From an uncultured Aquimarina sp. (GTDB lineage Bacteria > Bacteroidota > Bacteroidia > Flavobacteriales > Flavobacteriaceae): a DNA stretch of 64,000 bases. Below the pieces are notes generated by a model, which was not told the origin of the DNA, did no database searches, and saw only the letters and a list, made by a program, of their open reading frames with translations. Numbering within the stretch: position 1 is the first letter of the stretch; each line of letters begins with the position of its first letter. This document shows positions 36,202-51,258 of this stretch, one piece after another. The DNA is taken from contig CANNFM010000024.1 in NCBI GenBank assembly GCA_947503835.1, positions 2,787 through 66,786 of the forward strand, given 5' to 3'. Both the position numbers and the translations under genes were made by a program.

Positions 36202-39200
36202 TTGGAACAGTCTAAATTGAATCTCAAAGGGATCAATCTCTTTGATATTAACTTGCTATCAGAAGTAGAGAAGAATCAGTATCTGTATGAGTTTAATAAG
36301 ACAAATGCTGATTTTCCGAGTGAGTCGACCATAACCGCTTTGTTCGAAGAGCAGGCTAGAAAAACACCCGATCATGTAGCACTGCAAACTGCAAATCAAA
36401 ACATGACCTTCAAGGAACTAAATGATGAGGCCAATAAATTTGCAACGTATTTAGCGAATCAATATGGGACCAAACCAGGTGATTTGATTGGGATAATGTT
36501 AGAAAGAGAGCACTATTTAATTCCTGCAATATTGGGAGTTTTAAAGGCAGGTGCCACGTATGTGCCTATAGATCTAAACTATCCAGAAGAAAGAATCAAA
36601 AGAATTATTACTGATTCTAAAATTAATACCCTGGTTGTTAGAGGAGAGCACAAACTTTCTACAGAAAAGGATCTGTCTATTTTGAATTTAAACAAAGAAC
36701 AAAAGAAGATAAAGGCCCAAAAACCTAAGAAGAATAAAGAAAGAAAGAATACCGATCTGGCCTATATAATTTATACTTCGGGATCTACAGGAAACCCTAA
36801 AGGAGTAATGATAGAGGACAAAGCATTAGTTAATTATGCATTTTGGGCGGCAAACTATTATTTCCAGGGAGAAAAAGCGACTATGCCTTTATACTCGTCT
36901 ATTTCTTTTGACCTAACGATTACGTCTATTTTTGCGCCGTTAATTACAGGAAATACTATAGTAGTATATAAAGAGGATGAAACTACGGTTCTAATAGAAA
37001 AAATCATAGAAGAAAATCTTTGTGATACTATAAAACTAACCCCGTCTCATCTAAAAATTATAAAAGAAAGTGTTGTATTAAAAAACCAGATAGCAAAAGG
37101 GACAAACATAAAAAGATTTATCGTTGGAGGAGAAGAGCTGTCCATGAATTTGGCAACAGCTATTCATGAATTATTTAATAACAATATAGAAATATATAAT
37201 GAGTACGGACCTACAGAAGCGACTGTAGGGTGTATGATCTATAAATACAATAATAAAGACAAAAGTCCGTCTGTTTCTATAGGTATGCCTATTAATAATA
37301 CCCAGATTTATATACTAGACGATTTTTTAAATCCAGTAGCTAACGGAATGCTGGGAGAATTATACATCTCAGGAGAAGGGGTAGCTAGAGGGTACTTGTT
37401 CAATGACACATTAACAAAAGAATGTTTTCTTGAAAATCCTTTTGTTCCTGGTACAACGATGTACAAAACAGGGGATTTTGCAAAAAGAATGCCGGATGGT
37501 ACTATTGTTTTTTCTGGTCGAAAAGATGATCAGGTAAAAATTAACGCGTATCGTATTGAGTTGGGAGAAATAGAAAATCAATTATCAAAATATACAGAAA
37601 TTGATGACTGTGCAGTAGCAACGAAAGACAATGATGACGAAAAATATGTTGTAGCTTATTATACGGCTAAAGAAGAAATAGAATCAATCAACTTAAAACG
37701 ATTCTTACAAGAAAGATTACCAGATTATATGCTACCATCTTATTTTGTGAAAATGGAGCAAATCCCTTTAACGGTTAATGGTAAACTTGATAAATCTGCA
37801 TTGCCTTATCCAGAGATTCTTTCAAAGAAAGAATATATAGCACCAGTAAGTACAACCGAAAAGGTATTACAAAAAATTTGGTCTGAGCTATTAGGATTAG
37901 CCGAAGATGAAATTGGGGTCACCCAAAATTTCCTAGAGCTTGGAGGTCATTCGATCAAGGTGATGTTAATGTTAAATAAGATTCAGAAAGAGCTTAATGT
38001 TAGAGTGCCAATGAATGAGGCATTTGATAACCTCGAAATTCAGAGTTTGGCTAAATACATTGATAGTTTAAACAAAGAAACAGCCTACAGTCCAGTAAAA
38101 AGAGCTTCCGAAAATGAGTTTTACCCATTGTCGTCTGCACAAAAACGACTTTATTTTTTACATGAATTTAATTCTGAAGCTATTACCTACAATATTCCTA
38201 AAATAGTCAAAATTAAAGGTAAGCTGAATAAGAGTGGGATTAAGAATGCATTTCAAAAACTCGTAAAACGTCATGAAATTTTAAGAACATCATTCCTTAT
38301 GGAAGATGCTAATCCAGTGCAAAAAGTTCATGATAATGTGAATTTTGAGTTAGAATGTTACGAATGCGAAGAAAATAAGCTTAATACTACCATCAAAGAA
38401 TTTATTAGACCATTTAATCTGCAAGAACCTTCCTTACTTAGAGTGGGATTAGTTAAAATTTCGAAAGAAGAGCATGTACTTATTGTAGATATGCATCACA
38501 TTATCACTGATGGTGTTTCAGAAAGCATACTAATCAAGGAATTTATGGCTTTGTATGATAAGCAAAAATTACCTAAACTTTCTGTACAATACAAAGACTA
38601 TGTAGAGTGGCAAATGGAAAAATCTCAACAACTTGTATTACAAAGGCAAAAAGAATATTGGTTGGATGAATTTAAAAATAAGCAATCTAGCTTAAACTTA
38701 CCATCAGATTATACCAGACCCGCTGTCAATACTAATGAAGGAGCAGTAGTACATTTCAGTTTAAATACTAAAAAAACTAATGCATTAAAAGGGCTAGCTA
38801 AGCAAGAACAAACCACACTTTATGTAGTATTACTTTCGGTATTTAATATTCTGCTAAGTAAATTAACTAATGAAGAAGATATAACCATAGGAAGCCCTGT
38901 TGCCGGAAGACAACATACAGATATAGAATCTGTTGTTGGAGTGTTCATTAATATGCTGGCGTTAAGAAATTTCCCAAAAGGAGATCTTAGTTTTACGACA
39001 TTTTTGTCAAATGTAAAATCTAAAGTATTAGATGCATTTAATCATCAGGAATACCCGTATGAAGAATTAATTGATGCATTAGAACTTGGTAGGGATATCA
39101 ATCATAATCCATTGTTTGATGTCATGTTTGCTTATCAGAATTTTGACAATGAACCATTAGAAATTTCTAATTTAGAAGTTACACCGTATGAGCCAGAGCA

Positions 39201-42200
39201 TAATGTATCTAAACTTAACTTGAGTTTGCAAGTTTATGAAACTACCGATGAACTTCAATTACAATTTGAGTATTCAACTCAATTATTCAAAGAAGAAACA
39301 ATACAAAGATTTATTTCATATTTCAATGAAATTATATCCGAAGTTACTTCTAATCCGGTTATCGCGATTAATGATATAGAAGCACTTCCAGAAAAAGAAA
39401 AACAAACACTTTTAGTAGAATTTAATACTACAACAAAAGATTTTTCTGAACAGGAAACGGTCGTGTCTTTATTTGAGAAGCAAGCATTAAAAACACCTAA
39501 CAAGATAGCAGTTGTTTATGAAGGGCAAACATTAACATACCAAGATATCGATGAAAAATCAAATCAGTTAGCTCATTATCTTAAGAACTCTTGTCAAATT
39601 GAAAAAAATGATGTGGTAGGTTTTATGATGGATCGCTCTGAAAGTTTAGTAATAGGTCTGTTGGGTATATTAAAAGCAGGAGCTGCTTATTTACCAATTG
39701 ATCCAGCCTATCCCAAAGAACGAATATCATATGTGTTACAAGATAGTGGTGCCAAAGTATTGTTGATCGATGAAGAAATAGAGAGCGAAGTTACAATAGA
39801 TAAAAAAGTTGTTTATCTAAGTCAAACCGAAAATGAGAAGAAAACCAATCCATCTAATCATATAAGTCCTGATGATATCTGTTATTTAATATATACATCT
39901 GGATCGACAGGTAAACCAAAAGGAGTAGTTATCACACATCAAAATGTAGTAAATTTTATAGCAGGTATTAGTGATCGTATCCCAGCTACAGAAAAAGATG
40001 CGATGTTAGCAGTAACCAGTACCTCATTTGATATTTCTGTTCTCGAACTTTTTTGGACGATATGTAATGGAGTAGAGATCGTAATACACCCTTCTAATGT
40101 TTCTTTATCTGGTCTTGATAGATATGTGGCTGGAGAGGATTTATCTATGGATTTTAGTTTGTTTTTCTTTTCTAGCTATAACAACAAGGAAGCTAATAAA
40201 TATAACTTACTATTAGAGTCTGCAAAATTTGCTGATAAAGCAGGATTTAATGCGGTCTGGACACCCGAACGACATTTTCACGAATTTGGTGGTTTATACC
40301 CTAATCCTTCAATTACCAGTGCTGCACTTGCTATGATTACAAATCAAGTCGAGCTTAGAAGTGGTAGTATCGTGGCTCCGTTACATGATCCCATACGTAT
40401 TGTAGAAGAATGGTCTGTAGTTGATAACCTGTCTAACGGTCGGGTATCCTTATCATTTGCTTCAGGTTGGAACCCTAATGATTTCTCATTAGCTAAAGAT
40501 TCATATAAAGAGAGACACAAAATCTTGCACGAGCAAGTAGATGTAATGAAAAAATTATGGAGAGGAGAATCTATTAAAAGAGAAAACGGTTTAGGACAAG
40601 AAGTAGATATAGCTGTTTTTCCGAGACCTATTCAAAAAGAAATGCCAATCTGGATAACCTCAAGTGGTAATGTAGAAACCTTTAAAAGTGCAGGAGCAAG
40701 TGGTGCTAATTTGTTAACACATTTGTTAGGACAAAACATCGATGATCTTGAAGAAAAAATCAAACTATATAAACAAGCTCGGGTAGAAAATGGCTATGAT
40801 GAAAGCGGAGGAAAAATAGCAGTGATGCTGCATTCTTTTATTGGTGAAGATATTGAAGAAGTTGAAAGTATTGTTGAGGAGCCATTTACCGAATATTTAA
40901 AAACTTCAATAGGGGTTGATAAATTGCTGATGGAACAGTCTGGATTAAATGCTGATGATATTGATGGTGATGAAATGAAGGTTTTATTAAAGAATGCATT
41001 CAAACGATATTACCAAAATAGCTCACTGATTGGTACAAAAAGCAAATGTAGCGAGTTGGTTTTAAAACTAAAGAAGATTGGTGTTGATGAAATAGCATGT
41101 TTGATTGACTTTGGGGTAGATAATGATAAAGTTTTAGAAAGTTTAACTCATTTAGAGGAGCTAAAACAGTTATTTGCCTTAAAAGGGAATAAAGCTCACC
41201 AACCAATAACAATGATGCAATCTACACCGTCATTTATAAAAATGACTCAAGAAGGTGGGAGTTCAGGAAAATTCTTAGAATCATTACAAACATTATTACT
41301 TGGAGGTGAAGCGGTACCTAAAATACTGGTTAAACAATTACAAGAAAAAATGTCTTCAGATATTTATAATATGTATGGACCTACAGAAACTACCGTTTGG
41401 TCATCGATACATAAATTTTCAGAAAAAGACACAAAAGTTACCGTAGGAACTCCAATTCTTAATACCCAAATCCTAATCCTAAATCAAAATAAGAAAATGG
41501 TGCCTATAGGGGTTCCTGGAACACTCTACATTGGTGGTAAAGGAGTTTCTAAAGGGTATTGGAAAAATGATAAGTTAACAAATGAAAGATTTATACAAAA
41601 TCCTTTTAAGAAAGACGATATCATCTATAATACCGGTGATATAGCGAAGTGGAATGCCAATGGAACTATAGAGTTAATTGGTAGAGAAGATGCCCAGGTA
41701 AAAATAAGAGGACATAGAATAGAACTGGGAGAGATCGAATCACAATTAAATACCCATGATTTGATTCAGCAATCTGTCGTAGTGTGTAATGATATAGAAG
41801 GAGAAAAATATTTGGCAGCTTTCTATATGGCATCAGAAGTATTAGATTCTAATGACATCAGAACGTACTTGTATGATTACTTACCTAGTTATATGCAACC
41901 TTCATTTTTTATACAATTAGATGAAATGCCACTTACGCCAAATGGAAAAGTTGACAAAAAAGCACTACCCAATCCTTTATTGGTTCATGAAAATGATTTT
42001 GTAGCTCCATCTAATAGCGAAGAAGAATCGTTGGTAGAGATCTGGTCAGAGGTCTTAGAGATTCATATAAATCGAATTAGTGTAGAAAAGAGTTTCTTTG
42101 AATTAGGTGGAAATTCATTGAAAATATTGAAACTAAACTCCTTAATGAAAGAAAAACTTGATTGGGAGGTTTCTATACCAGAAATGTTCCGGTATCCATC

Positions 42201-42321
42201 AATCGCATCATTAATTGCATATAAAAACAGTTCGAAACCTAGTGAAGAAGATTATAAAAAAGTAGCTGAAGACGAGGTTTCAGAAATGGAAAGTATGTTT
42301 AATCTTATCGAACAAGAATAA
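36202..42321 (+). CDS. NRPS: A(Asn-type) - T - C - A(Gly-type, interrupted by luciferase-like monooxygenase domain) - T
   Basis: The protein starts directly in a C-A linker/A1 region (LSEVEKNQYLYEFNKT). The start codon at 36202 is TTG, and the first in-frame ATG is codon 68. A1: YTSGSTGNPKGV, NEYGPTEATVGC, code D-L-T-K-I-G-E-V-G-K. T: FLELGGHSIKV. C: MHHIITDGVS. A2: YTSGSTGKPKGV and SFDISVLE, then about 346 aa of LLM-like insert (MDFSLFFFSSY...), then NMYGPTETTVWS. The A2 code is D-I-L-Q-L-G-M-V-W-K (Gly-type). T: FFELGGNSLKIL. Confidence 0.95.
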   Translation: MEQSKLNLKGINLFDINLLSEVEKNQYLYEFNKTNADFPSESTITALFEEQARKTPDHVALQTANQNMTFKELNDEANKFATYLANQYGTKPGDLIGIMLEREHYLIPAILGVLKAGATYVPIDLNYPEERIKRIITDSKINTLVVRGEHKLSTEKDLSILNLNKEQKKIKAQKPKKNKERKNTDLAYIIYTSGSTGNPKGVMIEDKALVNYAFWAANYYFQGEKATMPLYSSISFDLTITSIFAPLITGNTIVVYKEDETTVLIEKIIEENLCDTIKLTPSHLKIIKESVVLKNQIAKGTNIKRFIVGGEELSMNLATAIHELFNNNIEIYNEYGPTEATVGCMIYKYNNKDKSPSVSIGMPINNTQIYILDDFLNPVANGMLGELYISGEGVARGYLFNDTLTKECFLENPFVPGTTMYKTGDFAKRMPDGTIVFSGRKDDQVKINAYRIELGEIENQLSKYTEIDDCAVATKDNDDEKYVVAYYTAKEEIESINLKRFLQERLPDYMLPSYFVKMEQIPLTVNGKLDKSALPYPEILSKKEYIAPVSTTEKVLQKIWSELLGLAEDEIGVTQNFLELGGHSIKVMLMLNKIQKELNVRVPMNEAFDNLEIQSLAKYIDSLNKETAYSPVKRASENEFYPLSSAQKRLYFLHEFNSEAITYNIPKIVKIKGKLNKSGIKNAFQKLVKRHEILRTSFLMEDANPVQKVHDNVNFELECYECEENKLNTTIKEFIRPFNLQEPSLLRVGLVKISKEEHVLIVDMHHIITDGVSESILIKEFMALYDKQKLPKLSVQYKDYVEWQMEKSQQLVLQRQKEYWLDEFKNKQSSLNLPSDYTRPAVNTNEGAVVHFSLNTKKTNALKGLAKQEQTTLYVVLLSVFNILLSKLTNEEDITIGSPVAGRQHTDIESVVGVFINMLALRNFPKGDLSFTTFLSNVKSKVLDAFNHQEYPYEELIDALELGRDINHNPLFDVMFAYQNFDNEPLEISNLEVTPYEPEHNVSKLNLSLQVYETTDELQLQFEYSTQLFKEETIQRFISYFNEIISEVTSNPVIAINDIEALPEKEKQTLLVEFNTTTKDFSEQETVVSLFEKQALKTPNKIAVVYEGQTLTYQDIDEKSNQLAHYLKNSCQIEKNDVVGFMMDRSESLVIGLLGILKAGAAYLPIDPAYPKERISYVLQDSGAKVLLIDEEIESEVTIDKKVVYLSQTENEKKTNPSNHISPDDICYLIYTSGSTGKPKGVVITHQNVVNFIAGISDRIPATEKDAMLAVTSTSFDISVLELFWTICNGVEIVIHPSNVSLSGLDRYVAGEDLSMDFSLFFFSSYNNKEANKYNLLLESAKFADKAGFNAVWTPERHFHEFGGLYPNPSITSAALAMITNQVELRSGSIVAPLHDPIRIVEEWSVVDNLSNGRVSLSFASGWNPNDFSLAKDSYKERHKILHEQVDVMKKLWRGESIKRENGLGQEVDIAVFPRPIQKEMPIWITSSGNVETFKSAGASGANLLTHLLGQNIDDLEEKIKLYKQARVENGYDESGGKIAVMLHSFIGEDIEEVESIVEEPFTEYLKTSIGVDKLLMEQSGLNADDIDGDEMKVLLKNAFKRYYQNSSLIGTKSKCSELVLKLKKIGVDEIACLIDFGVDNDKVLESLTHLEELKQLFALKGNKAHQPITMMQSTPSFIKMTQEGGSSGKFLESLQTLLLGGEAVPKILVKQLQEKMSSDIYNMYGPTETTVWSSIHKFSEKDTKVTVGTPILNTQILILNQNKKMVPIGVPGTLYIGGKGVSKGYWKNDKLTNERFIQNPFKKDDIIYNTGDIAKWNANGTIELIGREDAQVKIRGHRIELGEIESQLNTHDLIQQSVVVCNDIEGEKYLAAFYMASEVLDSNDIRTYLYDYLPSYMQPSFFIQLDEMPLTPNGKVDKKALPNPLLVHENDFVAPSNSEEESLVEIWSEVLEIHINRISVEKSFFELGGNSLKILKLNSLMKEKLDWEVSIPEMFRYPSIASLIAYKNSSKPSEEDYKKVAEDEVSEMESMFNLIEQE
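40147..41185 (+). other. Luciferase-like monooxygenase (LLM/MOx) domain inserted in the Gly-type A domain between the A4 and A5 motifs
   Basis: About 346 aa (MDFSLFFFSSYNN...AVWTPERHFHEFGGLYPNPS...VDEIACLIDFG) lie between FDISVLE (A4) and NMYGPTETT (A5). This resembles the natural-product LLM domain found inside MtaG/MelG-type A domains. Boundaries are approximate. Confidence 0.8.
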
Positions 42322-42333
42322 CCTTTATTTCAT

Positions 42334-45300
42334 ATGAAAAAATATAACGGTGTAGAAATTGCCATTGTAGGAATGTCAGGGCAATTTCCAGGGGCAAAGA
42401 ATATTGACCAGTTTTGGGAAAATCTCAAAAACGGAGTAGAGTCAATAGACTTTTTTACTGATGAAGAACTTTTAGAAGAAGGAGAAACAACCAATACAAT
42501 AAATAACCCTTCTTATGTAAAAGCTAATGCTTATTTAGAAGATAAACAATTTTTTGATTCAGAGTTTTTTGGATACACTCCTTCTGAAGCAAAATTGATG
42601 GATCCTCAAGCAAGATTGTTTCATGAAAATTGTTGGAAAGCATTAGAAGATGCTGGGTATGATATTACCACCAATACCGACAAGATTGGACTTTTTGCAG
42701 GAGCTTCATCTAATGTAAATTGGTTGACCTATGCTTCGATATCTAATATGGATAATGCAGTTAATAATTTTAATGCATTTCATCTAAGGGATATTACTTT
42801 TATGTGCTCTAGAGTATCGTATCTTTTGAATCTTCAAGGACCTTCAATGCACATTAATACTGCATGTTCTACATCATTGGTGGCCATTCAAAGAGCATGT
42901 ATGAGTTTATTATTACGCGAATGTAAAATGGCTATCGCTGGTGGTGTAACAGTTAAAAATCATTCTAAAAAAGGATACTTTTATGAAGAGGGAATGATAG
43001 ATTCTTCTGACGGGCATTGTAAAACTTTCGACGCAGACGCAGATGGAACAATTGGGGGAGAAGGTGTAGGAGTAGTCATATTAAAAAGATTATCTGATGC
43101 CATTAATGATGGAGATCATATATATGCTGTAATAAAGGGGAGTGGAATCAATAATGATGGATCTAATAAAATAGCATATACTGCGCCAAGTATTGATGGA
43201 CAATCACAGGCTATCCATAAAGCCATGAGTATGGGGAAGATAGAACCTGAAAGTATTAGTTATATCGAAGCGCATGGAACAGCTACTAAGTTGGGAGATC
43301 CAATCGAGGTCGAAGCACTAACACATTCTTATGGTAAAAGTGAAGAAAAATATTGTGCTATTGGATCTGTAAAGTCAAATATTGGTCACTTGGATATTGC
43401 TGCAGGTGTTGCAGGTTTTATAAAAACTGCAATGTCTTTAAAAAATAAGGTAATTCCGCCTTCTCTGCACTTTAAAAATCCTAACCCTAAAATAAACTTT
43501 TTAGAAAGTCCATTTTATGTTAATACTACTTTAAAAGAATGGACAAATGATAAATATCCTTTAAGAGCAGGGGTAAGTTCTTTTGGTATCGGAGGGACAA
43601 ATGCACATGTTATACTTGAAGAAGCTCCAGAAATAGATCCTTCTTCAGCGAGTAGAGATTATCAATTACTAACGTTTTCTGCTAAAACTACTGCTGCTTT
43701 AGAAAGAAATATACAACGGTTTTCAGAATTTATTAAAAAAGATAATGAATTAAAATTATCAGATATAGCTTCTACTTTACAGACCGGACGAGCGTCTTTA
43801 GGATACAGAAAGACTATAGTATGCAAAGGAAAAGAAAATGTAGCTGATGCATTGTCAAATCTAAAAATAGAGCACACTAATAAATCTATTTCAAAAAAGA
43901 GAAAACCTAATGTAGTTTTTATGTTTTCAGGGCAAGGTTCTCAATATGCTAATATGTGCCTTGATCTATATAATAGTGAAGAAGTTTTTAAAGAAAGTTT
44001 GGATAAGAGCTTTGAGATTTTAGGGCGTTTCACAGATAAGGATCTAAAAAGTATCTTATTTTCCGAAAATGAAACCGAAATAAATAATACAGAAAATGCA
44101 CAACCTTTATTATTTAGTATTGAGTATGCTCTTGCAGAATTATTGATTTCTTGGGGTATACACCCCGAAGTTATGGTTGGACATAGTATTGGAGAGTATG
44201 TTGCAGCTTGTTTGAGTGGCGTATTTTCATTAGAGGATGCATTATTTTTAGTATTACAGAGAGGAGAGCTAATGCAAAAAGCATCTAGAGGAACAATGCT
44301 TAGTGTATCTATATCTGAAGAAGAGTTACAACCCTATCTTTTACGAAATAATGCAATTTCTTTAGCAGCGGTAAATAGTTCGGACCTATGTGTACTTTCT
44401 GGGAGTCATGAGGAGATTGCAAAAATTAAGGCAATCTTAGAGCAAAAAGAATTTTCTTGTAAAGAATTGAGAACATCGCATGCATTCCACTCTCACATGA
44501 TGGATGAAATTTTAGAAGAGTTTAGAAATATTATCAACACTATTCAGCTAAAATCACCTCAAAAGGCTTTTTATTCAAATCTTACCGGAGAATTAGTTTC
44601 AGACTCACAAGTTCTAAATCCGGAATATTGGGTAAATCACTTAAGGGGCACAGTTAGGTTTTCGAAATGTGTAGAAAACCTTACCAAGAAAGAAGAGACT
44701 TTGTTCATTGAAGTAGGACCCGGAAGAGTACTAAGCTCATTAGTAAAGTCTAATTCTTCTCGTAAGAAAAGTCAAAAAGCTATAAACTTAGTGCGACATG
44801 CTTCAGAAGAAATTAATGATCAACAATATTTGTTATCAAGTTTAGGAAGTATTTGGGAAGAAGGGGTTGAACCAGATTGGACTACTTTTTATAAAGATGA
44901 AGTACGTCATAAACTGTCTTTACCCACATATTCATTTGATAAAGTAGCATATCCAACTAATGTTGATGCTTATAAAATGATGAGAGAACTCTCAGGTACT
45001 ATTAAAGAAAATGATATTTCGACATACTATGAACCTTCATGGAAAAAAACATCTTTAGTCTCGGCTAATGAGAAACCTGAAAGTAAAACTAATTTGTTAT
45101 TTATTGATGATTTAGGTGTTGGGGAGTCACTTTTGAAAGAGCTAAAGGAAAATAACGAAACGGTAATTTGTGTTTCTAAAGGAGAAGACTTTTATATCGA
45201 TAATTCTGTATATTCTGTAAATCCAGAAAATCCAGATAGTATAAATGAGCTATTTGCTAGCTTAAATCAAAACAAAATATATCCTAATAGAATTTTATAC

Positions 45301-48300
45301 GGTTGGTCAATATCAGACAAAAAAGCTGAAACTTCTTTAAACTATAAAATTGAAGAAACTAACTTTTTTACTCTTTTTAATATAATCAAAAGCTTTAATG
45401 CTCATTTTGATCTTGAAGAAAAAGAGTTAATCGTAATAACCAATAATTTGCATTCAATTACAGGAAACGAAAAAGGAAATTCTGAAGAAGGAATGCAACT
45501 CGGGTTATTAAAGGTAATTGCGCAGGAATACTCAGGAGTTGTTACTGGTCATATAGATATCTCATTAAATTCAAATAACAATAAAAAAGATGCAGAACGA
45601 TTATTTCAGGAAATTTTGTACAAAGAACCTGGAAAAAGTGTTGCATTAAGAAATGGAAGCAGGTGGTCGCAGATTTATGAGCCGATAAAGGTAGATACTA
45701 GTAAGAAAGAAAGTGTATTTAAGAACCAAGGGACATATTTAATTACCGGGGGATTAGGTAACTTAGGATATACACTGTCAAAATATCTATTAGAAAAATT
45801 TAGTGTAAAAGTAATTCTTACTGGGCGGACTGAATTACCAAATCGAAGCGAATGGTCAAAATTGTTGGCGAATAAAGAAGCAAATAGTAGCGTTGCAACA
45901 AGAATTGAAAGATATCAAGAACTCGAAAAACTTAATGGACAAGTAGAGTATTATTCTTGTGATATTATTAATAAATCAAATTTTGAAGAACTAATCTCAA
46001 AGATCGAAAAAGTAAACTCAATAAATGGAGTTGTGCATGCTGCTGGGGTTATACATGGAACCTCGATCAATTTGATTGAAAACTTGACAAAAGAAGATTT
46101 TGAAGATCAGTTTTTTGCCAAAACAATAGGAGTCAAGGTTTTAAATGAAGTCTTTAAAGACAAAAAACTAGATTTTAGTTTAATAGTATCTTCGTTATCC
46201 TCAATTCTTGGCGGATTAGGTTTTGCAGCTTACGCTTCTGCCAATAGCTTTATGGATTATTTCGTAAAAGAAAAATTAGCTACCGGAGATCTAGAAAATT
46301 GGCAATGTGTAAACTTTGATGGATTAAATTTTTCAGACACCTCGACAGATAATGATAGTCTTAATAAATCAGAAATATTAGAAGCTGTTGAACATGTTTT
46401 ATCATTAAAAAATCTTCATCAAATTGTCGTTTCAAAATCTGATTTACAACAACGATTAGATAATTGGATAAAACGTAATGTTGAAGAAGATGCTACCGAA
46501 GAAAGTACTTCTCCAATATTAGATGAAAGGTTACAAGCTGCACATGTATCACTTAATTCTCTTGAAGAAGGATTAATAGCATTGTGGGAAGATTTCTTTG
46601 GGAAATCTATAGAGATTGAGGATAATTTCTTTGAAATTGGCGGAGATTCTTTAAAAGCATTAACGATGCTTAGAAGAATTCATAAAACCTTTAATGTAGA
46701 ACTATCGATTAAAGAATTTTTTGATTGCGGAACAGTTCGCCTAATCAGTGAACGTATTAACAAGAAAAAAGCAGAATTAGAAAACCAATCAAACAATTAC
46801 GTTACCATACCCAAGGCAGAGACTCAAGAGTATTATCACTTAAGCTCAGTTCAAAAACGCTTATATTTCCTTTACGAATATGCTAAAGATTCTTTAGCTT
46901 ATAACTTACCACAAATAGTAAAATTAGAAGGAAATCTAAATAAAGAACGCCTCGTAAAGGTTTTTGAAAGACTTTTACAAAGGCATGAGAGCTTACGCAC
47001 TTCTTTTTCATTAATTAATGGAGTGCCCATGCAAAAAATAGAGGAGCTTACTTCTTTTGAGATAATCGAGATAAAAGCAAAATCCGATGAGATAAGCACA
47101 ATCATCAATGATTTTATTACCCCATTTGATTTGAGTAAAGCGCCTTTAATACGAGTAGGACTTGTTCAAGTTAGTGATTTAGAGCATATTTTGATGGTAG
47201 ATATGCATCATATCATCACCGATGGAATCTCACAAGGGATATTGATTTCGGATTTTATGAAGCTATATAATAATGAAGAATTACCAGAATTAAGGCTTCA
47301 ATATAAAGATTATGCAAACTGGCAGGGTCATGAAGAACAACAAAAACGTATATCAAGTCAAAAGGAATTTTGGTTAGAACAGTTCTCAGATGAGGTTAAA
47401 TTAACTAATTTACCTACCGACTTTGTTCGACCTTTAGAGTCCAGTAATAAAGGAGAGTCAGTGTGGATCAAACTAGCGAAAGATGAGATAAAAGGTTTGG
47501 TAAAACTTGCTGATAATGAGCAAGCGACCAATTACATGGTTTTGTTGTCAATATTTAATATACTGTTATCAAAACTAAGTAATCAAGAAGATATTACTAT
47601 AGGATCACCCGTTGCTGGTCGTCAACATTCAGATTTTGATAATGTTATCGGGATGTTTGTCAATACACTTTCAATACGTAATTACCCTAAAGGAGACTAT
47701 ACATTTAGAGAGTTTCTTGCAGAGGTTAAACAAAGAGCTATTGCATGTTTTGATAATCAAGATTATCCTTATGAAGAATTGGTTGAAGGACTTAAAATTG
47801 ATAGAGAGAAAGGAAGAAACCCATTATTTGATACCATGTTTGAGTATCAAATAAGTACCGAAGAAACTCAACTAAAAATTCCTGAACTAGAATTAACCAT
47901 TTTTAATGGTGTTGACGAAAAAATTCTTAATGTATCCAAGTTTGATCTCTTACTTTCTGCTCTAGAGAACGGAGATGATCTAAGACTTAAACTAGAATAT
48001 TCATATGATCTCTTTAGAAGTGAAACAGTGGAGAGGTTTATAAAGTATTATAAGAGAATTATTAATCAGGTCATAGAAAACCCTGATTGTAAGCTAGCCG
48101 ATATAAAATTATTAGATCTTAAAGAAGAAGGAAAGCTTTTAGAACTGTTAAACGATACAGATCAGGCATATAAAAAAGAAGAGACTATTTTAGAGCTTTT
48201 TGAAAAACAAGTAGAACGCAATCCAAATCAAATTGCAATTCAGGATGAAAATACTTGTTTGACTTACAAAGAGCTACAAAGTAAGTCGAATCAAATTTAT

Positions 48301-51258
48301 GGATATCTACAAAGTGAAAAGAATATTAAGGTAGGTGATACTATCGGAATATTACTAGATCGGGATGAATATTTGATCCCTTCTATTCTTGGGACATTAA
48401 AAACCGGTGCGGCGTTTGTTCCTATCGATCTAAAGCTCCCACAAGAAAGGATAAATGCGATTATTGAAGGAGCAAATTTAAAAGCGTTAATAACAAGTAA
48501 TAAAAGTCTGCTAAAAGATTCTATCCCATCTGCGATTAATCTTGACGAGGTGATTCATGATCTTGAAACTTTTGAAAGACCATATGTAAGTCATTCTGTA
48601 AAAAGTACTGATTTGGCATACATCATTTATACTTCAGGATCTACAGGCACACCAAAAGGAGTGATGATAGAGCACCAATCATTGGCCAATTATATCAATT
48701 GGGCAACAAAAACATATGTAAATAATGAGAAATCAACATTTGCATTGTTCACTTCTATTTCCTTTGACCTAACAATTACTTCAATTTTTACTCCATTAAT
48801 TACAGGAGATAAAATTGTCTTGTATCCTGAAAATGAAAATGAAATATTAGTTGAGAAAGTTTTTTTAAATGATGAAGTGGATGTAATAAAGCTTACTCCC
48901 TCACATTTAAAAATCATTAAGAACTCATCTTGTTCTGCATCAAATACAACATCTAAAACACTTATTGTTGGAGGTGAAAATTTTGAAACATCTCTTGCAA
49001 GGTCTATTGGTGAACAGTTTGCAAATAAAATGATTCAGTATAATGAATACGGACCAACTGAAGCAACGGTAGGTTGTATGATTTATGAGTTTAATGCTAA
49101 AGAACAAACCAACTCTGTGCCCATAGGGAAGCCAATTGACAATATGCAGGTATATGTGCTGGATAAAAACTTAAACTTAGTGCCTAACGGTGTTGATGGA
49201 GAGTTATTTCTCTCTGGAGACGGAATCTCAAGAGGATACTGGAACAATTTAGATTTAACAGCTGAAAAGTTTTTGAACAATCCGTTTATTGATGGAACAA
49301 AAATGTATCAAACCGGAGATGTTGTAACCCAATTGGAAGATGGAAATTTGATATATAAAGGAAGAATCGATGATCAAGTTAAAATTAGAGGATTCAGAAT
49401 TGAATTAGGAGAGGTTGAAGCACAAATAGAAATTAATGAACATATAAAAGAAGTACATGTTATTCCAAAAAATATTCAAGATGAGCAAGCTTTATTTGCA
49501 TACTATGTGGCTGATAAAAAAATAGATGCATCAGAGCTAAAAACGTTTTTAGAAAATAGTTTACCAGAATATATGATTCCTTCTAATTTCATACAAATGG
49601 AGGAAATGCCATTAACCCAAAACGGTAAACTTGATAAAAAAGCATTGCCAGAAGTGTTAACCGATAGTGATTATGTAGCTCCTTCAAGTGCATTAGAGAA
49701 AGAACTGGTTCAAATATTTGCGAAGGTATTAAAACTGGAAGAAGATACCGTTAGCACCGATAAGAGCTTCTTTGAGCTCGGAGGAAATTCAATACGAGTA
49801 ATACTTTTAATTAGTGCAATTAGAAAATTAAATGCAGTTAAACTAAATCTGAAGGATGTTTTTGATAATCCGTCTGTGCAAAAATTAGCTAAGATCATTG
49901 AGAAAACATCAGTGCAAGAAGAAGTAGCAATTCCTAAAGTGGATACACAAGAATTTTATCCAACTTCTCCAGCACAAGAAAGGATGTATTATCAGCAATC
50001 TTTGGATACAGAAGATTTAGGATGGAATATCTTTACTGCCATGGAGATTAGTGATGAAAGTAGTGCAGAAACACTAGAGGCTACATTTCAAAAACTTATT
50101 GATCGTCATGAATGTCTAAGAACAAGTTTTATTCTACTAGAAGATGGTGTAGCACAAAAAGTGAATGAAGAAGTATGCTTTAAGCTTCAACATTTGGAAG
50201 AAAATCAATTCGATACTGTAGAAGGAGCTTTTTCAAGTTTTGTTCGTTCTTTTGATTTATCGGAGCCCTCATTATTTCGATGTGCTTTATTAAAAAGAAA
50301 AAAAGCTTCAGATCTTTTATTTATAGATGTTCATCATATTGTTTGTGATGGAATATCACTTGATATTCTGATTAAAGATTTTACGGCATTGTATTTTGAA
50401 GAAAATCTGGAACCTATTGCAACTCGTTACGTAGATTATGCTTCTTGGCAAAGAAATTCGAAACTTAAAATTGAAAAACAAGAAGGATACTGGAGTAATA
50501 AACTTAAAGGCAAATTACCTCGACTTGAGCTACTAACGCGTAAAAATCGAAACGAAGTTGGAACTTTTTATGTGGATGTAGATAGATTAGATGTTACAGG
50601 CTCTTTATACGAAGGAATAAAGGAGAAAACAAAGCAAGCCAAAGTATCTAATTTCATGTTCTTGCTATCAGTATACTATATTCTATTATCAAAAATCTCA
50701 GGGAAAAGTGATGTTATAATTGGTACAGACGTACTAGGAAGAACCCACACTTCTCTTAAAAATCTTGTAGGGACATTTGTGAACATTCTACCATTACGAA
50801 TAGATGTTAACGCTGTCATGTCTTACAAGCAATTTTTAGAAGAAGTAAAAACATCTGTACTTGAAGCTTATGATAATCAAGATTTTCAATTTGATCAGAT
50901 GGTTGATATAGTTGATAAAGAAGAAAGAGTAGTAAGAAACCCTATAGTAGATGTGCATTTCGCTGTTTCTGATACGGTTGAAGGTGATGAGGAGCTGGAA
51001 ACATTAAAGTTCAATCCTATCCTAATTAATAACAATACCAGAACTTCTCCTTATGAATTTAAGATTGAAGTAAGTGAAAGCAATCATCAGATGCATATTG
51101 ATTTTATTTATTGTAAAGAACTTTATGATAAAGAAATGATAAGTGTATTAAAAGAGTACTTCTCAAACATACTAAATACAATTTTGGAAGATGATATGGT
51201 TGAAATTCAAGATATTATGTTAGAGAACCAGGTTATGGATTTTAGTTTTGAGCTGTAG
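42334..51258 (+). CDS. Hybrid PKS-NRPS: KS - AT(malonyl-type) - KR - ACP - C - A(Asn-type) - T - C
   Basis: KS: TACSTSLVA, EAHGTATKLGDP, SNIGHLD. AT: GHSIGE plus HAFHS. KR: TGGLGNLG and YASAN. ACP: FFEIGGDSLKA. C: MHHIITDGIS. A: YTSGSTGTPKGV, NEYGPTEATVGC, code D-L-T-K-I-G-E-V-G-K. T: FFELGGNSIRV. The terminal C has VHHIVCDGIS (about 50329). The protein ends after the C domain. Confidence 0.95.
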   Translation: MKKYNGVEIAIVGMSGQFPGAKNIDQFWENLKNGVESIDFFTDEELLEEGETTNTINNPSYVKANAYLEDKQFFDSEFFGYTPSEAKLMDPQARLFHENCWKALEDAGYDITTNTDKIGLFAGASSNVNWLTYASISNMDNAVNNFNAFHLRDITFMCSRVSYLLNLQGPSMHINTACSTSLVAIQRACMSLLLRECKMAIAGGVTVKNHSKKGYFYEEGMIDSSDGHCKTFDADADGTIGGEGVGVVILKRLSDAINDGDHIYAVIKGSGINNDGSNKIAYTAPSIDGQSQAIHKAMSMGKIEPESISYIEAHGTATKLGDPIEVEALTHSYGKSEEKYCAIGSVKSNIGHLDIAAGVAGFIKTAMSLKNKVIPPSLHFKNPNPKINFLESPFYVNTTLKEWTNDKYPLRAGVSSFGIGGTNAHVILEEAPEIDPSSASRDYQLLTFSAKTTAALERNIQRFSEFIKKDNELKLSDIASTLQTGRASLGYRKTIVCKGKENVADALSNLKIEHTNKSISKKRKPNVVFMFSGQGSQYANMCLDLYNSEEVFKESLDKSFEILGRFTDKDLKSILFSENETEINNTENAQPLLFSIEYALAELLISWGIHPEVMVGHSIGEYVAACLSGVFSLEDALFLVLQRGELMQKASRGTMLSVSISEEELQPYLLRNNAISLAAVNSSDLCVLSGSHEEIAKIKAILEQKEFSCKELRTSHAFHSHMMDEILEEFRNIINTIQLKSPQKAFYSNLTGELVSDSQVLNPEYWVNHLRGTVRFSKCVENLTKKEETLFIEVGPGRVLSSLVKSNSSRKKSQKAINLVRHASEEINDQQYLLSSLGSIWEEGVEPDWTTFYKDEVRHKLSLPTYSFDKVAYPTNVDAYKMMRELSGTIKENDISTYYEPSWKKTSLVSANEKPESKTNLLFIDDLGVGESLLKELKENNETVICVSKGEDFYIDNSVYSVNPENPDSINELFASLNQNKIYPNRILYGWSISDKKAETSLNYKIEETNFFTLFNIIKSFNAHFDLEEKELIVITNNLHSITGNEKGNSEEGMQLGLLKVIAQEYSGVVTGHIDISLNSNNNKKDAERLFQEILYKEPGKSVALRNGSRWSQIYEPIKVDTSKKESVFKNQGTYLITGGLGNLGYTLSKYLLEKFSVKVILTGRTELPNRSEWSKLLANKEANSSVATRIERYQELEKLNGQVEYYSCDIINKSNFEELISKIEKVNSINGVVHAAGVIHGTSINLIENLTKEDFEDQFFAKTIGVKVLNEVFKDKKLDFSLIVSSLSSILGGLGFAAYASANSFMDYFVKEKLATGDLENWQCVNFDGLNFSDTSTDNDSLNKSEILEAVEHVLSLKNLHQIVVSKSDLQQRLDNWIKRNVEEDATEESTSPILDERLQAAHVSLNSLEEGLIALWEDFFGKSIEIEDNFFEIGGDSLKALTMLRRIHKTFNVELSIKEFFDCGTVRLISERINKKKAELENQSNNYVTIPKAETQEYYHLSSVQKRLYFLYEYAKDSLAYNLPQIVKLEGNLNKERLVKVFERLLQRHESLRTSFSLINGVPMQKIEELTSFEIIEIKAKSDEISTIINDFITPFDLSKAPLIRVGLVQVSDLEHILMVDMHHIITDGISQGILISDFMKLYNNEELPELRLQYKDYANWQGHEEQQKRISSQKEFWLEQFSDEVKLTNLPTDFVRPLESSNKGESVWIKLAKDEIKGLVKLADNEQATNYMVLLSIFNILLSKLSNQEDITIGSPVAGRQHSDFDNVIGMFVNTLSIRNYPKGDYTFREFLAEVKQRAIACFDNQDYPYEELVEGLKIDREKGRNPLFDTMFEYQISTEETQLKIPELELTIFNGVDEKILNVSKFDLLLSALENGDDLRLKLEYSYDLFRSETVERFIKYYKRIINQVIENPDCKLADIKLLDLKEEGKLLELLNDTDQAYKKEETILELFEKQVERNPNQIAIQDENTCLTYKELQSKSNQIYGYLQSEKNIKVGDTIGILLDRDEYLIPSILGTLKTGAAFVPIDLKLPQERINAIIEGANLKALITSNKSLLKDSIPSAINLDEVIHDLETFERPYVSHSVKSTDLAYIIYTSGSTGTPKGVMIEHQSLANYINWATKTYVNNEKSTFALFTSISFDLTITSIFTPLITGDKIVLYPENENEILVEKVFLNDEVDVIKLTPSHLKIIKNSSCSASNTTSKTLIVGGENFETSLARSIGEQFANKMIQYNEYGPTEATVGCMIYEFNAKEQTNSVPIGKPIDNMQVYVLDKNLNLVPNGVDGELFLSGDGISRGYWNNLDLTAEKFLNNPFIDGTKMYQTGDVVTQLEDGNLIYKGRIDDQVKIRGFRIELGEVEAQIEINEHIKEVHVIPKNIQDEQALFAYYVADKKIDASELKTFLENSLPEYMIPSNFIQMEEMPLTQNGKLDKKALPEVLTDSDYVAPSSALEKELVQIFAKVLKLEEDTVSTDKSFFELGGNSIRVILLISAIRKLNAVKLNLKDVFDNPSVQKLAKIIEKTSVQEEVAIPKVDTQEFYPTSPAQERMYYQQSLDTEDLGWNIFTAMEISDESSAETLEATFQKLIDRHECLRTSFILLEDGVAQKVNEEVCFKLQHLEENQFDTVEGAFSSFVRSFDLSEPSLFRCALLKRKKASDLLFIDVHHIVCDGISLDILIKDFTALYFEENLEPIATRYVDYASWQRNSKLKIEKQEGYWSNKLKGKLPRLELLTRKNRNEVGTFYVDVDRLDVTGSLYEGIKEKTKQAKVSNFMFLLSVYYILLSKISGKSDVIIGTDVLGRTHTSLKNLVGTFVNILPLRIDVNAVMSYKQFLEEVKTSVLEAYDNQDFQFDQMVDIVDKEERVVRNPIVDVHFAVSDTVEGDEELETLKFNPILINNNTRTSPYEFKIEVSESNHQMHIDFIYCKELYDKEMISVLKEYFSNILNTILEDDMVEIQDIMLENQVMDFSFEL

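What the first reader, a model, noticed from the sequence alone, without database searches (positions are those of the whole stretch)
39480..42321. Gly-type A domain interrupted by a luciferase-like monooxygenase, placed mid-line and feeding a KS
The second module of the 36202 ORF has Gly-type residues (D-I-L-Q-L-G-M-V-W-K, against Gly DILQLGLIWK). It carries a ~346-aa LLM domain between the A4 and A5 motifs (about 40147-41185). The known precedent, MtaG/MelG of myxothiazol/melithiazol, is a terminal module: alpha-hydroxylation of the tethered Gly causes fragmentation and leaves a terminal amide. Here the module has no TE and hands over to the KS of the next protein. There are two possibilities. 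An alpha-hydroxy-Gly (hemiaminal) unit is extended by the PKS. Alternatively, the line is programmed to break mid-way, releasing an N-terminal lipopeptide carboxamide while a glyoxylyl unit continues. Either would be unusual chemistry.
Basis: partly seen in the sequence, partly recalled or inferred. Interest (0 to 1): 0.75.

Follow-up and report, generated by a model that had tools for sequence, protein, structure and literature searches.

The report
Mid-line glycine-hydroxylating NRPS module feeding a ketosynthase
A glycine-loading module of a large lipopeptide assembly line carries a built-in flavin oxygenase and passes its product to a polyketide module; this layout turns out to be common in bacterial genomes, but I found no described product for it, and it most likely installs a hydroxylated (hemiaminal) glycine unit rather than cutting the chain.

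Summary
ORF 36202-42321 reads A(Asn)-T-C-A(Gly)-T. The Gly-type A domain (DILQLGMVWK) is split between motifs A4 and A5 by an intact MupA/Atu3671-type luciferase-like monooxygenase (TIGR04020, 489 bits against a cut-off of 244). There is no TE. Twelve bases downstream starts a KS-AT-KR-ACP-C-A(Asn)-T-C protein with an intact KS triad.

MtaG/MelG are not the only precedent. Solanimycin SolF has a mid-line Gly/flavin-monooxygenase module whose alpha-hydroxyglycine is retained. Among 80 related loci from species-representative genomes, about 32 have A(LLM)-T followed by a KS, about 18 by C or E, and only about 5 by TE.

Relatives give indirect evidence that the hydroxyl stays on the chain:
- Two have a true E domain plus a D-donor-type C after the Gly(LLM) module.
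- Ten carry an FkbM-type methyltransferase inside the same A domain, and eight of those feed a KS.
- One syntenic cluster has two such modules in one line.

Best reading: on-line alpha-hydroxylation of Asn-Gly-S-T, then malonyl extension and ketoreduction to a 4-amino-3,4-dihydroxybutanoyl hemiaminal. Programmed mid-line scission is not excluded. I rate it a new variant of a known kind, of moderate interest.

The parts
36202..42321 (+). NRPS ORF 'o11': A(Asn)-T-C-A(Gly, LLM-interrupted)-T, 2039 aa. It begins with A-T, which completes the split module opened by the terminal C domain of ORF 25810-36153.
   Evidence: ORF list; Pfam; motif map; specificity codes.
38116..39414 (+). Condensation domain (aa 639-1071, HHIITDG). 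It joins the Asn-terminated chain to Gly. It is an ordinary L-donor-like (LCL-like) type.
   Evidence: Pfam Condensation E=1.5e-124. It clusters with the window's non-post-E C domains.
39481..40146 (+). N-terminal part of the Gly A domain (motifs A1-A4). A3 is YTSGSTGKPK at 39892-39921. A4 is FDISVLE at 40027-40047 and gives code positions 235/236/239 = D, I, L.
   Evidence: Translation; motif map; code.
40153..41166 (+). Luciferase-like monooxygenase (MOx) domain inserted between A4 and A5. It belongs to the MupA/Atu3671 family and is predicted to be an FMNH2/O2-dependent alpha-hydroxylase of carrier-bound thioesters.
   Evidence: TIGR04020 at 488.9 bits against a 244.45 cut-off. PF00296 at E=4.6e-42. 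PDB 6KET (PuwE) at E=3.4e-119. 68 of 69 family-conserved columns kept.
41269..42021 (+). C-terminal part of the Gly A domain (A5 NMYGPTE at 41368, A8 GREDAQVKIRGHRIE, A10 PNGKVD). It gives code positions 278-517 = Q, L, G, M, V, W, K. No methyltransferase is inserted here, unlike in some relatives.
   Evidence: tblastn with FkbM-type and N-MT-type queries found nothing in the window.
42034..42237 (+). Thiolation domain of the Gly module (FFELGGNSL; Ser codon at 42115-42117). It is followed by a short acidic C-terminal tail and the stop codon. There is no TE, C or E.
   Evidence: Pfam PP-binding, 2 stretches; motif map; tail sequence.
42334..51258 (+). Next protein 'o12': KS (42355-43473), AT (43915-44820, malonyl-type HAFH), KR (45730-46287), ACP (46573-46758), C (46825-48141), A(Asn) (48199-49629), T, C. 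It receives the chain from the Gly(LLM)-T.
   Evidence: Pfam; KS Cys-His-His and AT motifs; Asn code.
51311..53173 (+). Asparagine synthetase (AsnB)-like gene lying between the C-terminal C domain of o12 and the A-T-C protein 53398-56556. The same position is conserved in relatives. It probably supplies Asn for the four Asn modules.
   Evidence: Pfam Asn_synthase/GATase. Synteny in L001 and L084 and in L004.
15144..16130 (+). TauD-family dioxygenase inside the cluster. It is a candidate beta-hydroxylase of Asn/Asp residues. It gives context only and is not part of the Gly module.
   Evidence: Pfam TauD E=7.1e-36.

Best explanation
The module is a working, mid-line Gly module with an embedded alpha-hydroxylase.

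Proposed steps:
1. The A domain loads Gly on its T domain.
2. The preceding C domain attaches the growing lipopeptide, which ends in Asn.
3. The embedded LLM domain uses reduced FMN and O2 to hydroxylate the alpha-carbon of the tethered N-acyl-glycyl thioester. This gives a carbinolamide (alpha-hydroxyglycine).
4. With no TE or lyase present, the intermediate is not cleaved. It passes to the KS of the next protein.
5. It is extended with malonate, and the new beta-keto group is reduced by the KR.
6. The chain then carries a 4-amino-3,4-dihydroxybutanoyl unit, an N-acyl hemiaminal next to a secondary alcohol. This is the motif of pederin-type aminals.
7. NRPS extension continues (Asn and onward).

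Shown here: domain identities, their integrity, their order, the Gly-type pocket, and the family-wide genomic context.

Inferred: that the LLM hydroxylates the Gly alpha-carbon, that this happens after condensation, that the KS accepts the hydroxylated chain, and that the hemiaminal persists.
For: 1. The LLM is a high-scoring, intact member of TIGR04020 (68 of 69 conserved columns).
2. Its closest solved relative is the PuwE oxygenase domain (6KET, E=3.4e-119). [quoted passage not shown]
3. A mid-line Gly module with an embedded flavin monooxygenase gives a retained alpha-hydroxyglycine in solanimycin B (PMC10204066).
4. A(LLM)-T followed directly by KS is the commonest context of this domain (about 32 of 80 loci, across many phyla). 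The full string C-A(LLM)-T-KS-AT-KR-C-A recurs in Fluviicola (L057) and in a Bacilli MAG (L021).
5. In L006 and L054 a Gly-coded A(LLM)-T is followed in the same polypeptide by a true E domain (HHxxxDG, EGHGRE, TVGWFT, FNYLG). The next C domain is of the type that follows E domains (D-donor, DCL-like). That makes sense only if the alpha-carbon is stereogenic and the residue stays in the chain.
6. Ten loci carry an FkbM-family methyltransferase (PF05050) inside the same A domain, about 800 nt after the LLM. Eight of these then feed a KS. This is consistent with trapping the hydroxyl as a methyl aminal before PKS extension.
7. The closest syntenic cluster (L084) has two Gly(LLM) modules in one line, both followed by ordinary L-donor-like C domains.
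8. The window's LLM sits in a Bacteroidota subclade whose seven other members are all non-terminal (six followed by C, one at a contig end). TE-followed modules are scattered across the tree and do not form a clade.
9. From established knowledge: peptidyl-alpha-hydroxyglycine is stable enough at neutral pH that animals need a separate lyase (PAL) to cleave it.
Against: - There is no product and no biochemical datum for this cluster, or for any A(LLM a4-a5)-T to KS system that I could find.
- The only characterised or proposed a4-a5 LLM-interrupted Gly modules (MtaG, MelG, FshJ and the crz-like clusters) are terminal, and their reported or proposed outcome is cleavage to a carboxamide. The domain's chemistry can therefore lead to scission.
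- The E-domain and methyltransferase arguments come from relatives whose LLM is 48-56% identical, not from this module. The window module has neither feature.
- FkbM-type O-methylation of the hemiaminal is inferred from the family name only.
- The window contains no flavin reductase gene.
- A free hemiaminal may not survive in the final product.
Confidence: 0.55

Rival explanations
1. Programmed mid-line scission. After hydroxylation, the carbinolamide collapses on the T domain. This releases the upstream lipopeptide as an Asn-carboxamide and leaves glyoxylyl-S-T. The KS then uses glyoxylyl-S-T as a starter for a second product (glyoxylyl + malonate, reduction, then Asn and onward). One gene line would make two molecules.
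For: - Carboxamide release is the reported or proposed outcome for the a4-a5 LLM-interrupted Gly modules with a described or predicted product (MtaG/MelG, FshJ).
- A comparable split-and-reuse logic, via alpha-hydroxylation of Val, was proposed for megapolipeptins (PMC11411415).
- TE-followed and KS-followed LLMs are interleaved in the tree, so the oxygenase itself is probably the same.
Against: - There is no TE or lyase here.
- In relatives, the C domains downstream of A(LLM)-T are ordinary L-donor-like (LCL-like) elongation types, not starter-like.
- An E domain plus a D-donor-type (DCL-like) C after Gly(LLM) in L006 and L054 would have no function on a glyoxylyl unit.
- L084 would be cut into three pieces.
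- An FkbM methyltransferase inside the same A domain suggests the hydroxyl is kept and capped.
- Solanimycin B keeps the hydroxyl.
Confidence: 0.15
2. Latent cleavage site. The hydroxylated unit is carried through the whole assembly. After release, the hemiaminal breaks down, either spontaneously or through the clustered amidohydrolase. This yields a peptide-Asn-carboxamide and an aldehyde-bearing second fragment. It would be a pro-drug-like maturation step.
For: - Acyclic carbinolamides can fragment to amide plus aldehyde (discussed in PMC10204066).
- An amidohydrolase-family gene lies in the cluster at 16467-17981.
Against: - N-acyl hemiaminals next to an oxygenated carbon are isolable in known natural products (the pederin family, spergualin; from established knowledge).
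- Nothing links the amidohydrolase to this step.
- The relatives with a methyltransferase would block such cleavage.
Confidence: 0.15
3. The oxygenase is silent, partly skipped, or does different chemistry. Options are further oxidation to an oxalyl/alpha-keto unit, or dehydration to an N-acylimine that captures a nucleophile and forms a cross-link. The main product would then carry either a plain Gly-derived 4-amino-3-hydroxybutanoyl unit or a cyclised aminal.
For: - Solanimycin A is made by skipping the hydroxylation.
- There is no flavin reductase gene in the window.
- Neighbouring Asn side chains and the KR-derived hydroxyl are potential internal nucleophiles (inference).
Against: - The LLM keeps 68 of 69 strongly conserved positions, which argues against decay.
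- Two-component flavin oxygenases commonly use housekeeping reductases (established knowledge).
- No direct evidence supports the alternative chemistries.
Confidence: 0.12

Closest known systems
MtaG / MelG (myxothiazol, melithiazol) and FshJ (fischerazoles): C-A(MOx)-T-TE terminal amide-forming modules
   Same: - Gly-type A domain interrupted between A4 and A5 by an embedded monooxygenase (MOx) domain (a TIGR04020-type LLM in the window module).
- The proposed reaction is alpha-hydroxylation of tethered N-acyl-glycine.
   Different: - Those modules are the last in the line and carry a TE. The carbinolamide fragments to a terminal carboxamide plus glyoxylate.
- Here the module is internal, has no TE, and is followed by KS-AT-KR-ACP and at least four more NRPS modules.
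Solanimycin SolF module 4 (Dickeya solani)
   Same: - Mid-line Gly module with an embedded flavin monooxygenase.
- The hydroxylated residue is passed on and retained (solanimycin B).
- It is part of a hybrid NRPS/PKS line (PMC10204066).
   Different: - In SolF the oxygenase is inserted between a8 and a9, not a4 and a5.
- The next step there is a C domain (Ser), not a KS.
- I did not check whether the SolF oxygenase is of the LLM class.
PuwE oxygenase domain (puwainaphycin; PDB 6KET) and other LLM domains inside PKS modules (microginin, palmerolide module 9)
   Same: - Closest solved homologue of the insert (E=3.4e-119).
- The proposed reaction is the same: alpha-hydroxylation of a carrier-bound thioester, with the hydroxyl kept in the product.
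   Different: - Those domains sit in PKS modules (KS-AT-...-Ox) and act on acyl or beta-aminoacyl chains.
- They are not inside an A domain and do not act on glycine.
Pederin/onnamide-type N-acyl aminal formation (trans-AT PKS-NRPS with the free-standing LLM OnnC)
   Same: - The predicted product motif is the same: a glycine-derived carbon bearing N and O, directly extended by a PKS to an oxygenated carbon.
- An LLM is the proposed hydroxylase in that pathway (Lackner et al. 2017, as cited in PMC8739492). That OnnC acts on the glycine alpha-carbon is my own recollection and inference, not stated in the passage I read.
   Different: - Those are trans-AT systems with a discrete oxygenase and O-methylation.
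- Here the line is cis-AT, the oxygenase is embedded in the A domain, and no methyltransferase is present in the window.
- This is a resemblance of outcome only, not membership.

Membership tests
LLM (MOx)-interrupted Gly adenylation domain (MtaG/MelG type) | The insert is a natural-product LLM (TIGR04020 / PF00296) scoring above the curated cut-off. | tested here: met
   TIGR04020 at 488.9 bits against 244.45, full model 1-341. PF00296 at E=4.6e-42.
LLM (MOx)-interrupted Gly adenylation domain (MtaG/MelG type) | The insertion lies between A-domain core motifs A4 and A5, with the rest of the A domain and the T domain intact. | tested here: met
   A4 FDISVLE at aa 1276; LLM at aa 1318-1655; A5 NMYGPTE at aa 1723. 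A3, A8, A10 and GGNSL are present. All 120 best protein hits have the LLM at the same place.
LLM (MOx)-interrupted Gly adenylation domain (MtaG/MelG type) | Glycine-type specificity code. | tested here: met
   DILQLGMVWK (plus hand placement of position 278). The D-I-L...M-I/V-W-K core is shared by nearly all homologues. No NRPSpredictor run was possible.
LLM (MOx)-interrupted Gly adenylation domain (MtaG/MelG type) | FMN-dependent alpha-hydroxylation of the tethered glycyl residue. | not testable with these tools
   Only sequence integrity could be checked: 68 of 69 conserved columns are kept.
MtaG/MelG terminal amide-forming release module | It is the last module of the line, followed by a TE that releases glyoxylate while the product leaves as a carboxamide. 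| tested here: not met
   There is no TE in the ORF or anywhere in the window. The T domain is followed by a stop codon, and 12 nt later by a KS-starting protein.
Solanimycin SolF-type mid-line Gly hydroxylating module | An internal module whose hydroxylated Gly is passed to the next module. | tested here: inconclusive
   The internal position is met. Transfer of the hydroxylated residue is inferred from relatives only.
Solanimycin SolF-type mid-line Gly hydroxylating module | The oxygenase is inserted between a8 and a9. | tested here: not met
   Here the insertion is between a4 and a5. The SolF position is taken from PMC10204066.
PKS-module LLM alpha-hydroxylase (PuwE type) | The LLM domain lies in a PKS module after KS-AT (and AmT), not inside an A domain. 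| tested here: not met
   The window LLM is flanked by the two halves of an A domain. PKS-embedded LLMs do exist among the relatives (L031, L052, L067, L072, L076).

The most novel reading that the evidence does not exclude
The module is a built-in chain-scission point. Hydroxylation of the tethered Asn-Gly makes the line release an N-terminal lipopeptide carboxamide in mid-assembly. The leftover glyoxylyl thioester then primes the KS and seeds a second, different product. One co-linear gene line would be programmed to make two molecules.

If this were general, the many A(LLM)-T to KS loci found across phyla would all be 'release-and-restart' junctions.
Probability: 0.15. Interest if true: 0.85.

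Novelty: new variant of a known kind. Interest (0 to 1): 0.5.

Why it matters
If the favoured reading is right, an A domain with an embedded oxygenase is a compact, cis-AT way of building N-acyl hemiaminal units (or, with the extra methyltransferase, N,O-acetal units) inside hybrid peptide-polyketides. That motif carries the activity of the pederin family, and its biosynthetic origin is poorly defined.

The survey shows this junction is widespread and outnumbers the textbook terminal MtaG arrangement. It occurs in Acidobacteriota, Chloroflexota, Bacteroidota, cyanobacteria, myxobacteria and actinomycetes. Yet I found no described product. One reconstitution would therefore annotate hundreds of clusters.

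Current genome-mining rules would also need revising. They read 'A-MOx' as 'terminal amide', which would be wrong for most loci. If the scission reading is right instead, it would be a new way for one assembly line to make two products.

Tried and rejected
- Source organism. An exact-sequence look-up of the window's TauD protein found no record. The genome-contig scan gave at best 62% identity for the LLM. The organism is therefore unidentified. I infer Bacteroidota from the best hits and the 32% GC content.
- KS comparison. I asked whether KSs that follow A(LLM)-T form their own group, and whether the o12 KS is a copy of the o10 KS. Identities are a flat 47-60% with no separation, and the o10 and o12 PKS modules are only 41% identical. 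This test does not discriminate.
- Donor type of the downstream C domains, as a test for glyoxylyl donors. They look like ordinary L-donor-like (LCL-like) elongation domains. The references were only the window's own C domains, so this is weak evidence.
- Literature. Searches for TIGR04020, PuwE/6KET, 'methoxyglycine', and hydroxyglycine with PKS terms found no characterised A(LLM)-T to KS system. The PuwE search was mostly noise.
- L004. The domain after T looked E-like by BLAST but lacks HHxxxD, so I did not count it as an E domain.
- First specificity-code extraction. It used fixed offsets that misplaced positions 278, 299 and 301. It was corrected by motif anchoring.
- Non-colinear protein order (o9 to o12, and o11 to o10). 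I rejected this as irrelevant, because the Gly(LLM)-T would still hand over to a KS.
- Structure prediction. Not run, because the sequence match to a solved homologue was already decisive.

Full report
**What is there.**

The window is low in GC (about 32%). From about 6.3 kb to its end it carries one plus-strand NRPS/PKS operon. The domain order from Pfam and motif mapping is:

| ORF | Coordinates | Domains |
|---|---|---|
| o5 | 6359-8446 | ?-T-C |
| o6 | 8634-15092 | A(FAAL-like)-T-C-A-T-E |
| – | 15144-16130 | TauD dioxygenase |
| – | 16467-17981 | amidohydrolase |
| o9 | 18047-25801 | C-A-T-E-C-A-T |
| o10 | 25810-36153 | KS-AT-KR-ACP-C-A-T-E-C |
| o11 | 36202-42321 | A-T-C-A(LLM)-T |
| o12 | 42334-51258 | KS-AT-KR-ACP-C-A-T-C |
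| – | 51311-53173 | AsnB-like |
| o14 | 53398-56556 | A-T-C |
| o15 | 56666-63838 | x-A-T-C/E-C-A-T |

No thioesterase is seen before the window ends.

Specificity codes were read on GrsA numbering. My remembered GrsA fragment reproduced DAWTIAAICK with K at position 517.
- Four modules carry the Asn code DLTKIGEVGK: o6_A2, o9_A1, o11_A1 and o12_A1.
- One carries a Ser code (o15_A1).
- The module in question reads DILQLGMVWK, a Gly type.

- The second A domain of o11 is split by a luciferase-like monooxygenase. Pfam Bac_luciferase matches aa 1320-1629 at E=4.6e-42. NCBIfam TIGR04020 (MupA/Atu3671 family) matches aa 1318-1655 over the full model at 488.9 bits, against a cut-off of 244.45. This is window 40153-41166.
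- The insert lies between A4 (FDISVLE, aa 1276) and A5 (NMYGPTE, aa 1723). A3, A8, A10 and the T-domain serine motif are intact.
- The LLM keeps 68 of the 69 columns that are at least 95% conserved among 204 homologues. Its closest solved relative is the PuwE oxygenase domain, PDB 6KET, at E=3.4e-119.
- The ORF ends about 70 residues after the T-domain serine motif. Twelve bases later o12 begins with a KS that has the Cys-His-His triad, followed by a malonyl-type AT (HAFH), a KR and an ACP.

**How unusual is it?**

A protein search with the A(LLM)-T region returned thousands of hits. The 120 best all have the LLM at the same place in a Gly-type A domain. Most are C-A(LLM)-T proteins that stop right after the T domain, and only a few carry a TE.

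I then scanned one genome per species using an alignment of LLM domains. The best identity was only 62%, so the source genome is not in that collection.

What follows A(LLM)-T breaks down as:

| Next domain | Loci | Notes |
|---|---|---|
| KS | about 32 | 16 with no gap; the others have an extra domain or gene in between |
| C or E | about 18 | |
| TE | about 5 | |

In a further handful of loci the LLM sits in a PKS module instead.

So the MtaG-like terminal arrangement is the minority, and 'feeding a KS' is the commonest context. It occurs in Acidobacteriota, Chloroflexota, Bacteroidota, cyanobacteria, myxobacteria, actinomycetes and others. The full string C-A(LLM)-T-KS-AT-KR-C-A seen in the window recurs in Fluviicola (L057) and in a Bacilli MAG (L021).

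**Where this copy comes from.**

- In a neighbour-joining tree of LLM domains, the window groups with Bacteroidota sequences (L083, L001, L003, L084, L084b, L004, L005). Six of these seven are followed by C domains; L083 stops at a contig end. TE-followed modules are scattered through the tree and do not form a clade.
- Two relatives are syntenic with the window.
  - L084 reads...A(LLM)-T | C...NRPS | C-A(LLM)-T | C-A-T-C | AsnB | A-T-C | ....
  - Fulvivirgaceae PWU4 (L001) reads: A(LLM)-T-C | AsnB | JmjC/ankyrin | A-T-C | ....
- The C domain that follows A(LLM)-T in L084 and L003 is most similar (45%) to the C domain that follows the ACP in o12. The window therefore looks like the same lipopeptide family with a KS-AT-KR-ACP module inserted after the Gly(LLM) module.
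- That PKS module is not a recent copy of the o10 PKS module. The two are 41% identical overall and 58% in the KS.

**What the oxygenase does, and what happens next.**

- Members of TIGR04020 are proposed or shown to hydroxylate the alpha-carbon of carrier-bound thioesters. Examples are the PuwE Ox domain, the palmerolide module 9 LLM and MupA.
- For Gly modules with the a4-a5 insert, the reported or proposed cases are terminal and lead to a carboxamide plus glyoxylate. These are MtaG/MelG, FshJ and the crz-like clusters.
- Solanimycin SolF module 4 is a mid-line Gly module with an embedded flavin monooxygenase. There the alpha-hydroxyglycine is retained in solanimycin B, and the chain is extended by further NRPS and PKS steps. 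The oxygenase is inserted at a8-a9 in that case.

So both fates exist. The question is which one applies when a KS follows.

**Evidence bearing on retention versus scission.** None of it is direct for this module.

- In L006 (Bacteroidetes MAG) and L054 (Gemmatimonadales), a Gly-coded A(LLM)-T is followed in the same polypeptide by a genuine E domain (HHxxxDG, EGHGRE, TVGWFT, FNYLG). The next C domain is most similar to the window's post-E, D-donor-type C domains. An epimerase on glycine makes sense only if the alpha-carbon has become stereogenic and the residue is passed on.
- Ten of the 80 loci carry a second insert in the same A domain, about 800 nt after the LLM. It is an FkbM-family methyltransferase (PF05050). 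Eight of these feed a KS. FkbM-family enzymes are O-methyltransferases, so trapping of the new hydroxyl as a methyl aminal before PKS extension is the natural reading. This is inference.
- L084 has two Gly(LLM) modules in one line. Scission would cut that line into three.
- The C domains downstream of A(LLM)-T in relatives look like ordinary elongation (LCL-like) domains, not starter-like ones. This is weak, because only internal references were used.
- From established knowledge, peptidyl-alpha-hydroxyglycine is stable enough that animal amidation needs a separate lyase. N-acyl hemiaminals next to an oxygenated carbon are isolable, as in the pederin family and spergualin.

**Best explanation (confidence about 0.55).**

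Gly is loaded and acylated by the Asn-terminated chain. The embedded LLM hydroxylates the alpha-carbon. The carbinolamide passes to the o12 KS, is extended with malonate and is reduced by the KR. This gives a 4-amino-3,4-dihydroxybutanoyl hemiaminal unit, after which Asn and further residues are added.

**Rivals.**
- Programmed mid-line scission, releasing a lipopeptide-Asn-carboxamide and restarting from glyoxylyl-S-T (about 0.15).
- A hemiaminal that survives assembly but serves as a latent cleavage site (about 0.15).
- A skipped oxygenase or different chemistry, such as capture of an N-acylimine or further oxidation (about 0.12).

**Comparison and verdict.**

- The module meets every sequence criterion of the LLM-interrupted Gly A domain family.
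- It fails the criterion that defines the MtaG/MelG release module, which is a terminal position with a TE.
- It most likely works like solanimycin SolF module 4, but differs in the insertion site and in handing over to a KS.
- Its predicted product motif resembles the pederin-type N-acyl aminal, which is made in trans-AT systems for which a discrete LLM (OnnC) has been proposed as a hydroxylase.

It is a new variant of a known kind. It is ordinary in genomes but, as far as ten full-text searches could show, has no described product.

Noticed in passing
L012, L014, L016, L020, L025, L027, L028, L037, L039, L061 (about 800 nt after the LLM match in each; e.g. L020 11738-13186): These are doubly interrupted Gly A domains. 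The LLM sits between a4 and a5, and an FkbM-family methyltransferase (PF05050) sits between a8 and a10 of the same A domain, followed by T. Eight of the ten then feed a KS. Six other loci (L017, L029, L043, L045, L069, L080) have a class-I, N-MT-type methyltransferase at that position instead. The 2020 catalogue of interrupted A domains that I read has no occurrence of the terms FkbM, glycine, a4-a5 or monooxygenase and mentions MOx only in general terms, so it does not appear to cover this combination.
   Followed up: partly
L026, L034, L041, L043, L048, L051, L055, L059, L062, L063, L073, L077, L082; proteins P0064, P0074, P0079-P0081, P0084, P0087 and others: Loading modules of the form formyltransferase-A(Gly, LLM)-T, with no C domain. 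Five loci show the compact set F-A(LLM)-T, KS-AT-KR-(ACP)-TE. They occur in Chloroflexota, Phycisphaerae, Gammaproteobacteria and others. The product is unknown; formally it would be an N-formyl-alpha-hydroxyglycine extended by one ketide.
   Followed up: partly
L084 142-1164 and 12230-13255: The closest syntenic cluster (JGI metagenome 3300072121) has two Gly(LLM) modules in one assembly line, both followed by C domains.
   Followed up: partly
window 51311-53173; L001 14931-16790; L084 18887-20776; L004: An AsnB-like asparagine synthetase gene sits at a conserved position. It lies between a protein that ends in a C domain and an A-T-C protein that completes that split module. The window line has four modules with the identical Asn code DLTKIGEVGK, plus a TauD dioxygenase at 15144-16130.
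   Followed up: partly
window 2120-5276 (- strand) and 353-2101 (- strand): A split LanB-type lanthipeptide dehydratase (Lant_dehydr_N, 768 aa, and Lant_dehydr_C, 291 aa) lies next to an AraC/TPR regulator. They are divergent from the NRPS operon. I did not look for a precursor peptide gene.
   Followed up: no
window 5835-6362 (+ strand): A NusG-family gene sits directly upstream of, and overlaps by a few bases, the first NRPS gene. It is probably a dedicated antiterminator for the roughly 58 kb operon.
   Followed up: no
window 24404-25801 (o9 second A domain) and 25810 onward: The other NRPS-to-KS junction in the line is fed by an A domain with the unassigned code DVWNIAMVYK. Three further codes are also unassigned: o10 DGSAVAQIGK, o14 DARHLSLMIK and o15_A2 DVASFAIIYK.
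   Followed up: no
window 56666-57400 (o15 N-terminus) and o15 aa ~870-1320; P0005 N-terminus (L001 10001-10700): o15 has about 230 residues before its first A domain, and a C/E-like domain (HHAIIDG) of unclear type. The PWU4 homologue P0005 likewise starts with a partial C-like segment. These may be docking or structural remnants of split modules.
   Followed up: no
L012 13206-15256, L025 13187-15376, L015 and L020 gaps between T and KS: In several Acidobacteriota and Chloroflexota loci, genes are inserted between the Gly(LLM)-T and the KS. They include an FkbH-like HAD phosphatase, a second FkbM-type methyltransferase and an acyl-CoA dehydrogenase-like gene. They resemble genes for making hydroxy- or methoxymalonyl-ACP. 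Only the second FkbM-type methyltransferase is confirmed by Pfam; the HAD match was below the Pfam cut-off (21 vs 26.4 bits), and the FkbH-like and acyl-CoA dehydrogenase-like assignments rest on my reading of the sequences.
   Followed up: partly
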